Positions 12,001 to 15,000 of a stretch of DNA of 64,000 nucleotides are shown here, piece after piece (position 1 is the first letter of the stretch; the number at the start of each line of letters is the position of its first letter). The stretch comes from a virus (lineage: Duplodnaviria; Heunggongvirae; Uroviricota; Caudoviricetes): the IMG/VR virus record IMGVR_UViG_637000107_000010; one strand, 5' to 3'. The position numbers are program-made.

Positions 12001-15000
12001 AGTGCAAAAATAGCGGCGCGGGAATAGTCCAGAATACCCGGGGTTGCGCGAAGTGCTGCGGACCATTCTTTGAACGGACTTTCTCTTTTCAGGACGATTT
12101 CTTTTGCGCGACGATAAACGCTGCCCGGAATTTCATAAATATTAAAATCCATCGGAAGTGTGGCTGCTGCAATCTCCACATCCAGCGTATCGAAGGTGTG
12201 TACTAAATTCGGATTGCGATCGGTTTTGTTCCCGCCACCGGCATTTGCACCGGAAGCCGTACGGGTGATACGCGAAACACGATTTCCTTTCATCCACTCT
12301 TTTGTCAGCAGACCCCGATCAGTGTAGTCAGCGTCCAGGTATGCCTCGAAAAAAGCAGTTATCAGTCCCAGGTCTGAATTACCGGGATTAGGGAAAACTT
12401 TGTCAGTGTCGCGTACCAGTTTGTGAAGGTCGCGAATCTCCAGCGGGTCGAGCAGCTTTGTTTTGTGAGAAATGGCCAAGGCAGTAACAGCCGGCAGTTC
12501 TTCCGCCCGTGCTATATGTAATGCCTGAAGTTCTTCCCGTGCAACGTGCGTTACTGGTTTTTCGCTGCCGTGTTGCGCAAGCCAGCGAATGGGCAGCTCC
12601 TGACCAGAAACCGGCAGGAGCATATTCTCCTCAATCTCCGTCATGTCTTCGCCGTTGACGTTGGTATTGTCAGTACTGGCTGGTTTCTCCTGCACGGAGG
12701 GAGAGGGCGCGATAAATACCATTGTAATGCCATCTTCCCCGCCTTTTTCGTATCGGTTGCAGAATTCGGTATCAAACACGCCTTCAGGTGGAAGGTCATT
12801 CACAACGGGTAAATGGACGCGAACGGGTTTTTTAAAGTCGTCTTCATCATAATCGTTGTCATCCATTGCGGTAATGCAGCGGGAGATGGCAACAGATAAT
12901 TTTTTTGCTGTAGTCCAGTAAAAACCACCTTTAATTCCCAGACGTTTTCTGACTTTGTCATTTTTTGCTTCGCAATATAGCGCAAATTCTTCTTTATCAG
13001 TGCTCATTGATAAACCTCATTACAGATTTAAGGGTGAACAAATCCCTGCCATTGCTGGCATTTTTAATCCGTTGGTATGGTGTTAATATGGCTGGAGGGT
13101 TATCCAGCCGGTGTTTCGTTATTCAGGTACAGCGATACTTTTTTTACCGGGAGGCATTCACCAGAAATTTTTTGCTCGTCTCTTGCCTGGAGGCAGGATT
13201 CTTTACTGGCATAAATTCCGGTAATCACATTCTGTGATTCACCCGTTATAAGAAAAACCGTCATCATCAGTGCAAATGCTGAAGTCATTGACGTTCTCCG
13301 AAAATACCAAGTTCAAGAAGAGCAATTCGGGAAAGTATGGAATTATCATTGAGCAGATAAGGCTCATATTTCCTCATGTTAATGGCATCTTCAGTAAACT
13401 CCCGGTTACTGAGCAGAACACCAATATCAAAACAACCTTCAGACGTATTAACGTTTGGTAATAACGTTTCCATTATCGCGTCCTCAACAATGAATTTTGT
13501 GATGCAGTGCCTGGTGCCTCCAGGTGACGTTAACCAGTTAACAATTAACGCCGGATACAGAGAATCCACCCATAACACTGTTTTTGGTTTTAACTGTTCC
13601 GCGTGCGCTTAGCCGCATTCACCGCATCACAAAATTCACTTTAAAAAGGGCGGCAGAGCAGCCACGGAGTAAAACTGATACCGCCAAACGTCACCAGAAA
13701 ATTGATAACAGAGGGCGTTGCAGCGGGGTTGTCACTTAAGCGTATGGTCAACCTGACAACCCGGTGTCCTCAATGGGGAAGGAATAACCCCGCCATACTT
13801 ACCGCCGCGCCATTTCGCGGAGTGCCACAACCGGAAGCGCACGTTCGAAGAAATCTAACGACAAGCCTTCTAAGGGAAAGANCTTCGCCGTACGCTTTCG
13901 CGTTATGCACTGACTTTTCAGGGAAATATCCTTTCAGTAAACTGTCAGTACCGGATTCTTATCCGTGTCCGGCGCACGACCACACGTGACAGCGTGTTGG
14001 TCTCCATTTTTAACCCAGAACCTCAATGGAGGATAAAATGCCAAACAAAAAAAGAAATCCGCTTATTGAAAAACAGATTGAATGCCTGGTAAATCAACTC
14101 AGGCAATCAGGGTTATTAAAAACTCATTCAGAGTTGAGGCTCACAGAATCAGCATTCGACGATAAATTAAATAATGTCCTTTATAATGGCATTATTGATT
14201 TTAATCGTTCTGTTGGTCGCCGCGGCCCTGCTGGTGTTTCCTTATAATTACCAGTCAATCCAGAGTGGACCGTGTTCAGCGTAAATATAACTGTACACAT
14301 CCAGATTATATTTGTGGTCTGTTAAGAACAGGCCGCAAATACATGCCGAAGCTTCCAGTGCAGCGGCTCTGTTACTGAATAACCATGTAGCAACATTCCA
14401 GCGTTTTTCTGCATCCCAGTCTTTCTCAAGGCCTGATACCATGAAGAAACCGTTAGTGTTGCCATCAAATAATTCTGTTTCCAAATTTTTAAGCAATGCC
14501 TGATGGACTCTTGCCAGGTATTCCGCCGGAATTTCGCCACGAATTCTGATGAGATTGTCATAAACAAACATGTTCCCCGCATATGGCGATTTTTCTTTCT
14601 TGTTTTTTAAACCAGCATCATGAGCAAACTGATCAATTTCTTCTTCCGTTGGTTTCGTATTGATGTTTTGCGCTGTCGTTTCTGCAATTTTATTTGCCAC
14701 ACTCTCTGAGTCGTGTTTATTTATAGACGCACAGAAATACAATCCGGTAAACGCATCGCGCACATTACGAGCCATATTATCAGTGTCTTTTTTCGTTACC
14801 GATTCCAATTCAAGTTCGTTCAGACGATGACGAAGTGTGTGTGCTGCAATCTCCTGGATTGAAGGAGGTAAATCTTTAAATTCCATCGTCAACCTCATCA
14901 GTCAGTGTTTCTGGCTAACCAGCGACGCGCGCCAGCTTCAGTTTTAAACGTTTTGCTTTTGGTATACGTCATCGCGGTGAACGTACCGTCCTGGTTGGGG

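What the first reader, a model, noticed from the sequence alone, without database searches (positions are those of the whole stretch)
13100..14030. DicF sRNA and DicB division-inhibitor module preceded by a long ORF-free structured leader
The minus strand carries a near-exact DicF sRNA (13643..13700) followed by a DicB-like ORF and a YdfD-like ORF, the Qin-type cell-division-inhibition operon. Unlike K-12, where small ydfABC genes precede dicF, about 330 bp upstream (13700..14030) has no minus-strand ORF above ~20 codons and is GC-rich with long inverted repeats (for example GGTTGTCA...TGACAACC at 13727-13761). That region may be a structured 5' UTR or a separate ncRNA controlling the operon.
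Basis: partly seen in the sequence, partly recalled or inferred. Interest (0 to 1): 0.5.

Follow-up and report, generated by a model that had tools for sequence, protein, structure and literature searches.

The report
DicF leader holds conserved RNA fold
This is the known DicF/DicB cell-division-inhibitor cassette of a defective E. coli O157 prophage, and its gene-free leader, which K-12 also has, contains a conserved pseudoknotted RNA of unknown function that always sits just before the DicF-type terminator.

Summary
DicF (Rfam, 75 bits, 13648-13699 minus), DicB (Pfam, 125 bits) and a YdfD-type DUF1482 protein are all real. The upstream stretch is ORF-free, richer in G+C than its flanks, and the quoted inverted repeat is exact.

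The claim "unlike K-12" is wrong. K-12 Qin has a homologous ~340-nt untranslated spacer between ydfC and dicF, 91.5% identical over window 13978-13640. The literature already calls it a long untranslated region. Only the genes further upstream differ: ydfB/ydfC are replaced by a 216-aa ORF and an opposite-strand 69-aa ORF.

The new point is a ~125-nt element (13717-13842, minus). It folds into four helices plus a pseudoknot:
- 95.5% of cells are paired in 80 distinct sequences, against 33-57% in slid controls.
- Nine pairs carry compensatory changes.

It has no Rfam match. It occurs once per locus in lambdoid prophages of several enterobacterial genera and directly after the P1/P7 ban promoter. 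It is always sense to the early operon and always followed by a strong intrinsic terminator. DicF is one version of that terminator.

My best guess, which is inferred and not shown, is a cis-acting leader that controls read-through of this terminator (nut/put-like). Rival readings are an sRNA-precursor scaffold, a stand-alone ncRNA, or a riboswitch.

The parts
13648..13699 (-). DicF sRNA. Its 3' hairpin plus U-run (13643-13685) is the intrinsic terminator.
   Evidence: Rfam RF00039, 75 bits, full-length match to model positions 1-52. Terminator-like site found by the scan. One base differs from K-12.
13717..13831 (-). Module B, a conserved four-helix pseudoknotted RNA. P1 13831-13824/13724-13717; P2 13820-13816/13809-13805; pseudoknot 13798-13793/13747-13742; P3 13792-13788/13778-13774; P4 13762-13754/13734-13726.
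   Evidence: Covariance model hit of 173 bits, the only one in the window. Pair counts: 95.5% paired, 9 pairs with changes on both sides, 0/500 shuffles reach this, slid controls 33-57%. P3 has 42 sequence variants of 19-25 nt, and 41 of 42 form a P3-type hairpin.
13833..13842 (-). Conserved motif GTGCGCTTCC just 5' of P1. Relatives have GTGCTCT(C/T)T, which resembles boxA.
   Evidence: Conservation starts here while the sequence further upstream diverges. The resemblance to boxA is from my own knowledge of the consensus and is only a lead.
13843..13978 (-). Module A, the upstream part of the conserved leader. It has several hairpins and is 85-88% identical in other phages.
   Evidence: Homology with K-12 Qin starts at 13978. 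It occurs without the module B interior in phage phiSTEC1589. Alignment of 47 variants. The module B model does not recognise it.
13979..14037 (.). Junction specific to this prophage type. It holds a hairpin and the GGAGG ribosome-binding site of the plus-strand ORF.
   Evidence: Covered by the 597 genomes where a match spans at least 80% of the query. Typical matches in most other genomes start at 13978 or further 3'. Sequence read directly.
14038..14247 (+). 69-aa ORF of unknown function, on the strand opposite to the operon.
   Evidence: Annotated as hypothetical protein WP_001133037.1 in O157:H7 TR01. No Pfam match.
13474..13647 (-). DicF-to-dicB spacer, related to the sRNA family STnc100 but below that family's threshold.
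   Evidence: RF02076 scores 34.7 bits against a gathering score of 47, at 13441-13650.
13285..13473 (-). dicB
   Evidence: Pfam PF05358, 125.5 bits. Annotated as dicB in TR01.
13100..13288 (-). ydfD-type gene (DUF1482)
   Evidence: Pfam PF07358, 56.3 bits.
14248..14898 (-). 216-aa ORF that takes the place of ydfB/ydfC.
   Evidence: ORF list. Annotated as hypothetical in TR01. No Pfam match.
14898..15053 (-). ydfA homologue (DUF1391), first gene of the operon.
   Evidence: Pfam PF07151, 103.7 bits.
15230..15258 (-). Promoter-like site for the leftward early operon, just downstream of the repressor gene (15343-15981, minus strand).
   Evidence: TTGACC-17-TAAACT. The repressor has Peptidase_S24 and HTH domains.

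Best explanation
The locus is the leftward early (pL-type) operon of a defective Qin-like lambdoid prophage of E. coli O157:H7. Gene order is repressor | promoter - ydfA - 216-aa ORF - [opposite-strand 69-aa ORF] - untranslated leader - DicF - dicB - ydfD - truncated exoVIII.

The gene-free stretch is the same leader that precedes dicF in K-12. Its 3' half (13717-13842) is an independently folding RNA domain with four helices and a pseudoknot. This domain is transcribed as part of the operon.

Proposed mechanism (inferred): the domain acts in cis on the transcribing RNA polymerase, in the manner of phage nut or put sites. A fraction of polymerases then pass the DicF hairpin-terminator that immediately follows and go on to dicB and the distal early genes. 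Transcripts that stop there, or are cut by RNase E just 3' of the domain, yield DicF-type sRNAs.

Shown here: the fold, its conservation, its orientation, its single copy per locus, and its invariable pairing with a downstream terminator.

Inferred, not shown: any effect on termination.
For: 1. Structure. Pair counts on 81 and on 80 distinct sequences give 94.9% and 95.5% paired, against 33-57% when partners are slid. There are 8 and 9 pairs with changes on both sides. The covariation score is reached by 0/500 shuffles. G-U pairs in P1 would be A-C mismatches on the other strand, so the sense RNA is what folds.
2. Context. In P1 the modelled element starts about 10 nt after the inferred start of the C1-controlled ban transcript, counted from the annotated -10, and the BLAST-conserved core about 35 nt after it. 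In phage cdtI it lies about 270 nt after a near-consensus pL. In pPE4 it follows the dicA-type repressor gene. It is always sense to the operon.
3. Terminator. Among the 47 distinct downstream sequence groups, every one that extends far enough has a strong hairpin plus U-run 36-118 nt after P1. Between promoter and element no other same-strand terminator-like site is seen in the window, cdtI or P1. In P1 it is the only one before ban.
4. Need for read-through. The functional phage Tritos carries ydfABC-dicF-dicB-exo-xis-int with no annotated N. In K-12, Plac placed at the native promoter site gives DicB-dependent phenotypes, so transcription does cross the DicF terminator (PMC6832061).
5. N protein. 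No lambda-type or P22/phiSTEC1589-type N was found in 153 fetched sequences. The only hit is phiSTEC1589, which has lost the interior of the element.
6. A boxA-like motif (GTGCTCTYT) marks the 5' edge of conservation in the more distant relatives.
7. In most variants the element and the terminator fold as separate domains.
Against: - No experiment or transcript data bear on termination.
- There is only one copy per phage. No rightward-operon copy exists in cdtI or Tritos, whereas HK022 has putL and putR.
- There is no sequence or architectural similarity to HK022 put.
- The boxA resemblance is weak in the commonest (DicF-type) variant.
- In this window the element lies about 1.4 kb from the promoter, after translated genes.
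- The DicF terminator may simply be leaky.
- The sequences are closely related. The compensatory changes come from a few lineages (P1/P7, cdtI type, a few enterobacterial variants).
Confidence: 0.35

Rival explanations
1. The domain is the 5' body of a longer RNA that ends at the terminator. It could be a scaffold that directs or stabilises RNase E processing of DicF-type sRNAs. Or it could be a stand-alone ~180-nt structured ncRNA that acts in trans, for example by binding a host protein, with DicF having evolved in its linker.
For: - The linker between the domain and the terminator carries different 'seed' sequences in different phages, while the domain and the terminator are kept.
- In P1 the promoter, domain and terminator would give a discrete ~185-nt RNA.
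- The DicF 5' end is made by RNase E about 20 nt after P1 (PMC5069750).
- Many invariant bases lie in loops and junctions, as expected for a binding surface.
Against: - RNase E-processed sRNAs do not normally need such a domain (own knowledge).
- phiSTEC1589 keeps a DicF-like terminator unit without the interior of the domain.
- No partner is known.
Confidence: 0.3
2. The domain is a riboswitch-like aptamer, and the terminator is its expression platform. A metabolite or ion would decide whether early genes downstream are transcribed.
For: - The aptamer-then-terminator layout in a leader.
- A compact multi-helix junction with a pseudoknot and invariant unpaired bases.
Against: - No conserved alternative pairing links the domain to the 5' arm of the terminator.
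- The linker is 36-118 nt long and unrelated between variants.
- The two parts fold independently in most variants.
- Distribution is narrow: enterobacterial phages only.
Confidence: 0.1
3. The stretch has no function of its own. It would be a recently spread mosaic module carried along with dicF, with incidental hairpins.
For: - Most copies are more than 90% identical.
- Phage mosaicism moves blocks of sequence around.
- The shuffle control can be exceeded by related sequences alone (tool caveat).
Against: - The core survives at 78-88% identity in P1/P7, Salmonella, Erwinia and Trabulsiella contexts where both flanks are unrelated.
- The P3 stem sequences differ, yet 41 of 42 variants still form the hairpin.
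- Compensatory changes occur in P1, P3, P4 and the pseudoknot.
Confidence: 0.1
4. The stretch is a decayed coding region, a ydfC-like pseudogene or an unrecognised small ORF.
For: Some phage records annotate 'hypothetical protein' over it.
Against: - No ATG-started ORF on the sense strand.
- K-12 has the same gene-free stretch downstream of an intact ydfC.
- P3 varies by 1-6 nt, not in multiples of three.
- NCBI's pipeline annotates nothing there in the TR01 and K-12 records inspected, and most rows of the E. coli search list no feature under the match.
Confidence: 0.02

Closest known systems
dicBF operon of the K-12 Qin prophage (ydfABC - untranslated region - dicF - dicB - ydfD)
   Same: DicF, DicB, a YdfD-type protein and YdfA are shared. 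The ~280 nt preceding dicF are 91.5% identical. Both lie in a leftward early operon under a repressor (PMC5069750).
   Different: ydfB and ydfC are replaced by a 216-aa ORF and an opposite-strand 69-aa ORF. The repressor is a cI/LexA-like S24 protein rather than DicA.
HK022 put RNAs (protein-independent processive antiterminators)
   Same: A cis-transcribed structured RNA placed after an early promoter and before terminators, in a phage without N. P1 and cdtI show this placement.
   Different: put is about 70 nt with two stems and occurs twice per phage (putL, putR). This element is about 115 nt with four helices and a pseudoknot, occurs once, and shows no sequence similarity. Activity is untested.
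Lambda-type nut sites (boxA + boxB, read by N and the Nus factors)
   Same: A boxA-like motif immediately 5' of a structured RNA, in the pL leader and upstream of the first terminator.
   Different: No 15-nt boxB hairpin. No N protein was found near any copy. The boxA match is degenerate in the DicF-type variant.
'dicF-like region' annotated in the phage P1 genome, and the 'widespread prophage sequences' of Faubladier and Bouche 1994
   Same: The P1 annotation (locus L006 2553-2654) overlaps the 3' part of the element plus its terminator. The 1994 title shows that dicF homology across prophages was already noted (cited in PMC5069750).
   Different: I could not read the 1994 paper. The P1 annotation is a similarity note only. 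No fold, pseudoknot or covariation is described, and Rfam 15 has no such family.
Riboswitch and leader attenuators
   Same: A structured domain followed by an intrinsic terminator in a leader.
   Different: No conserved switching helix. No ligand is known.

Membership tests
DicF RNA (Rfam RF00039) | Covariance-model score at or above the curated gathering score | tested here: met
   75 bits against 48, full-length match to model positions 1-52, at 13648-13699(-).
DicF RNA (Rfam RF00039) | 3' hairpin with U-run acting as an intrinsic terminator, located upstream of dicB in a prophage early operon | tested here: met
   Hairpin plus TTTTT at 13643-13685. dicB lies 175 nt downstream.
DicB (Pfam PF05358) | Profile score above the curated cut-off | tested here: met
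   125.5 bits against 27, covering residues 1-62 of 62.
YdfD / DUF1482 (PF07358) | Profile score above the curated cut-off | tested here: met
   56.3 bits against 25.
HK022 put antiterminator RNA | About 70 nt, two stem-loops, sequence related to putL/putR | tested here: not met
   putL and putR were read from AF069308. There is no alignable similarity. The fold here has four helices plus a pseudoknot.
HK022 put antiterminator RNA | One copy downstream of each early promoter (pL and pR) | tested here: not met
   Model R1 finds one copy only in the whole genomes of cdtI and Tritos, and one per locus in 92 loci.
HK022 put antiterminator RNA | Makes RNA polymerase terminator-resistant without protein factors | not testable with these tools
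   Needs in vitro transcription.
Lambda-type nut site | boxA (GCTCTTTA-like) followed by a boxB hairpin | tested here: inconclusive
   GTGCTCT(C/T)T occurs in the cdtI, Salmonella, Erwinia and Trabulsiella variants, and GTGCGCTTCC in the window. No short boxB hairpin is present. A large domain stands in its place.
Lambda-type nut site | Cognate N protein encoded in the same operon | tested here: not met
   phmmer with two N seeds against all six-frame ORFs of 153 sequences hits only phiSTEC1589, which lacks the element's interior. No arginine-rich N-terminus other than repressors and an IS-type ORF. The seeds are few.
Riboswitch (transcriptional) | Mutually exclusive pairing between the aptamer and the terminator | tested here: not met
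   Domain and terminator fold independently in most of the 13 representative variants. The linkers are unrelated.
Riboswitch (transcriptional) | Specific ligand binding | not testable with these tools
   Needs in-line probing or similar.
RfaH ops element (GGCGGTAG) | Conserved G8 and T6 of the ops 12-mer | tested here: not met
   The element has GGCGGTAAG, with A at position 8. P7 has C at position 6. The ops consensus is from my own knowledge.
Any Rfam 15 family (for 13700-14040) | A match at E-value up to 10 with permissive filters | tested here: not met
   In 13700-14040 only chance-level matches appear, both upstream of modules A and B: anti-hemB at 14049-14121 (19 bits, E 0.09) and the eukaryotic lncRNA model DLEU1_2 at 14008-14330 (E 4.2). 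Nothing overlaps modules A or B (13717-13978). DicF and a sub-threshold STnc100 lie downstream.
tRNA / tmRNA-like element | ARAGORN detection | tested here: not met
   0 genes in the region.

The most novel reading that the evidence does not exclude
The four-helix pseudoknotted domain would be a new class of cis-acting, protein-independent (or Nus-factor-assisted) antiterminator RNA. N-less lambdoid phages and the P1 ban operon would use it to carry RNA polymerase through the DicF-type terminator. The same transcript would then yield either a division-inhibiting sRNA or the downstream early genes.
Probability: 0.2. Interest if true: 0.8.

Novelty: new variant of a known kind. Interest (0 to 1): 0.5.

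Why it matters
DicF and DicB are textbook prophage division inhibitors, and DicF contributes to EHEC virulence control. How the operon balances termination (which gives DicF) against read-through (which gives DicB and the recombination and integration genes) has not been explained.

About 4,300 of 5,426 complete E. coli genomes have a match to the queried stretch, and typical matches cover the element together with dicF. It is also present in P1/P7. If it governs terminator passage, it would be only the second RNA-based processive antitermination system known in phages, after HK022 put. It would also explain how Qin/Rac-type phages manage without N.

Even if it turns out to be only a processing scaffold, it is a well-defined, uncatalogued RNA motif that is easy to test in existing Plac-dicBF strains.

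Tried and rejected
- Rfam, at gathering threshold on the whole window and at E up to 10 on 13400-14400. Only DicF passes, plus a weak STnc100 match downstream.
- ARAGORN for tRNA- or tmRNA-like features: none.
- Comparison with HK022 putL and putR taken from AF069308: no similarity.
- Search for a second, diverged copy with a purpose-built covariance model in the window, the whole cdtI and Tritos genomes and 92 loci: none.
- Test of whether module A is a decayed copy of module B. The model does not recognise it. One natural recombinant (L036) does join the two at a shared GCGAAA motif.
- Riboswitch-type alternative pairing: not conserved.
- RfaH ops resemblance (GGCGGTAAG): fails at key positions.
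- A second pseudoknot between the P3 loop (UCCUU) and the GAGGA that follows. The pairing exists in the window but not in P1, P7, Trabulsiella or the L046-type variants, so I rejected it.
- Coding reading: rejected.
- Literature searches for a description of the motif: none found. Faubladier and Bouche 1994 could not be read.

Full report
**1. Checking the observation**

- Rfam finds DicF at 13648-13699 on the minus strand (75 bits, gathering score 48, full-length model). It differs from K-12 DicF by one loop base.
- The two ORFs that follow are DicB (PF05358, 125.5 bits) and a DUF1482/YdfD-type protein (56 bits).
- An O157:H7 chromosome that is 99.8% identical over this stretch carries the same annotations.
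- Between 13700 and 14040 the minus strand has only GTG- or TTG-started ORFs of 46 codons or fewer.
- G+C is 0.52-0.59 across 13600-13899, against 0.34-0.46 in most of the flanks.
- The window has an N at 13882. I read the region from the near-identical locus L001. The 391-nt sense strand folds with z = -2.48 against shuffles, and the antisense strand with z = -1.67.

**2. The comparison with K-12 does not hold**

- In K-12, ydfC ends at L002 position 2440 and dicB starts at 3008.
- The stretch 2501-2841 aligns with window 13978-13640 at 91.5% identity.
- K-12 therefore has the same gene-free leader of about 340 nt. Balasubramanian et al. [quoted passage not shown]
- What differs lies further upstream. 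ydfA is present (DUF1391, 14898-15053). ydfB and ydfC are replaced by a 216-aa ORF (14248-14898) and an opposite-strand 69-aa ORF with a GGAGG ribosome-binding site (14038-14247).
- Positions 13979-14037 belong to that junction, not to the conserved leader.

**3. Anatomy of the leader**

BLAST against phages shows the leader is modular.

Module B (about 13709-13845) occurs on its own in several places:
- in the pL leader of phages cdtI, 2H10 and Ayreon, and of Stx2c phages;
- in Salmonella phage F1055;
- in a phage labelled as an Actinobacillus phage;
- in P1 and P7.

Module A (13843-13978) occurs with only a remnant of module B in phiSTEC1589.

A pattern taken from the most conserved part retrieved 18 loci from species-representative genomes and at least 120 from viral contigs. 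The genera include Escherichia, Shigella, Citrobacter, Trabulsiella and Erwinia.

From 81 distinct sequences I derived a fold by eye (window coordinates in the parts list):
- a closing helix P1;
- P2 (CCGCG/CGCGG);
- a variable hairpin P3;
- P4 (GGGTTGTCA/TGACAACCC);
- a pseudoknot between GTATGG and CCATAC in the P4 loop.

Pair counts on the MAFFT alignment:
- 94.9% of cells are paired, against 34-57% when partners are slid by 1-3 columns.
- Eight pairs have changes on both sides.
- No shuffle out of 500 reaches the covariation score.

After realignment to a covariance model, 95.5% are paired and nine pairs have changes on both sides.

Examples of covariation:
- Phage P1 has GCATGG/CCATGC in the pseudoknot.
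- P1 and P7 have GTTGCCA/TGGCAAC in P4.
- The cdtI type has T-A where the window has C-G at the base of P1.
- P3 has 42 sequence variants of 19-25 nt, and 41 of 42 form a P3-type hairpin.

G-U pairs in P1 fit only the sense RNA.

Caveat: the sequences are related, and the compensatory events come from a handful of lineages.

**4. Context**

- In P1 the modelled element begins about 10 nt after the inferred start of the C1-controlled ban transcript (from the annotated -10), and the BLAST-conserved core about 35 nt after it. The P1 record marks an overlapping 'dicF-like region'.
- In cdtI the element lies about 270 nt after a near-consensus pL.
- In pPE4 it follows the dicA-type repressor gene.
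- It is always sense to the operon and occurs once per locus (92 hits in 92 loci). The whole genomes of cdtI and Tritos have no second copy.
- Every one of the 47 downstream sequence groups that extends far enough has a strong hairpin plus U-run 36-118 nt after P1.
- DicF is one such linker-plus-terminator. Other phages carry different linker sequences with a similar GGCGG...CCGCC terminator.
- In the window, in cdtI and in P1, no other same-strand terminator-like site lies between the promoter and the element. In P1 this is the only one before ban.

**5. How it may work**

Functional phages such as Tritos have ydfABC-dicF-dicB-exo-xis-int behind this terminator and no annotated N. In K-12, a Plac promoter placed at the native site gives DicB-dependent phenotypes (PMC6832061). 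Polymerase therefore does pass the DicF terminator.

That phage has lost the interior of the element.
- No N-like arginine-rich N-terminus turned up within 3 kb upstream or 2 kb downstream of 149 copies.
- The 5' edge of conservation in the distant variants is GTGCTCT(C/T)T, which resembles boxA. That comparison rests on my own knowledge of the consensus.

Taken together, the best-supported reading is a cis-acting leader that controls passage through the terminator, nut- or put-like. This step is inferred, and I give it 0.35.

It fails the membership tests for put: different size and architecture, no sequence similarity, one copy rather than two. It also fails those for lambda nut: no boxB and no N. 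The claim is 'may work like', not 'is a member of'.

**6. Rivals**

- (a) The domain is the body of a longer RNA, either a scaffold for RNase E processing of DicF-type sRNAs or a stand-alone ~180-nt ncRNA. This fits the variable 'seed' linkers and the discrete promoter-to-terminator unit in P1. Confidence 0.3.
- (b) A riboswitch. It is disfavoured because the domain and the terminator fold independently and the linkers are unrelated. Confidence 0.1.
- (c) Hitch-hiking without function. It is disfavoured because the core survives in unrelated flanks and the stems covary. Confidence 0.1.
- (d) Decayed coding sequence. Rejected.

**7. Novelty**

- The DicF/DicB cassette and the existence of its untranslated leader are known.
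- Homology of the dicF region across prophages and P1 was noted in the 1990s and in the P1 genome annotation. I could not read the 1994 paper.
- I found no description of the fold, pseudoknot or covariation. Rfam 15 has no matching family.
- I rate the element as a new variant of a known kind, namely phage leader RNAs tied to termination control. Interest is moderate until its function is tested.

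Noticed in passing
window 13441-13650 (-): The DicF-to-dicB spacer gives a sub-threshold match to the sRNA family STnc100 (34.7 bits, gathering score 47). It shares the CACCnGGAGGCACCnGGCAC hairpin. A full STnc100 copy lies elsewhere in the window.
   Followed up: partly
window 26403-26595 (+) and 26596-26657 (-): A full STnc100 (146 bits) lies back to back with AgvB, the anti-GcvB sRNA known from EHEC prophages (96.5 bits).
   Followed up: no
window 4321-4437 (-) and 29118-29234 (+): Two ALIL pseudoknot matches with identical printed sequence over the 117-nt match (121.5 bits each). 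These are IS3-family frameshift signals, so two copies of one insertion sequence lie in inverted orientation.
   Followed up: no
window 20910-21084 (+); 25380-25452 and 25556-25629 (+): A sok antitoxin RNA (hok/sok type I toxin-antitoxin, 110 bits) and two tRNA genes.
   Followed up: no
window 13882, and inside the STnc100 and sok matches: Isolated N bases interrupt otherwise clean sequence. They look like masked single positions rather than assembly gaps. The N at 13882 is a C in the near-identical O157 genome.
   Followed up: partly
window 14248-14898 (-) and related loci: The 216-aa ORF belongs to a family that shares the N-terminus MRLTMEFKDLP... but has many unrelated C-terminal halves in different prophages. 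No Pfam match.
   Followed up: partly
window 14038-14247 (+): A 69-aa ORF with a perfect GGAGG ribosome-binding site sits on the opposite strand inside the leftward operon. It ends tail to tail with the 216-aa ORF. No Pfam match. It looks like an inserted 'moron' gene.
   Followed up: partly
window 13766-13774 and 13479-13487 (-): The 8-mer TTGAGGAC occurs both in the junction after P3 of the element and as the dicB ribosome-binding site. The P3 loop (UCCUU) could pair with either. This may be chance.
   Followed up: no
L008 (PP818812, 'Actinobacillus phage vB_Apl-pPE4') 2565-2760: The unit made of the P1 3' strand, linker and terminator is duplicated in tandem. The element and the repressor/ydaT/kil genes around it match E. 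coli-type lambdoid prophages, despite the Actinobacillus label.
   Followed up: no
L014 (Trabulsiella), sequence upstream of the element; cdtI-type loci, sequence downstream of the terminator: A second DicF-like terminator unit lies upstream of the element in L014. A recurring motif ACAAC(A/G)nnGAGAGCAT appears both before the element and after terminators, which suggests arrays of related units in these leaders.
   Followed up: partly
L019, L020, L025 (metagenome bins labelled Bacillota, Veillonella, Collinsella): These contigs carry P1-like or E. coli-prophage-like copies of the element. They are most likely mis-binned enterobacterial or phage contigs.
   Followed up: no
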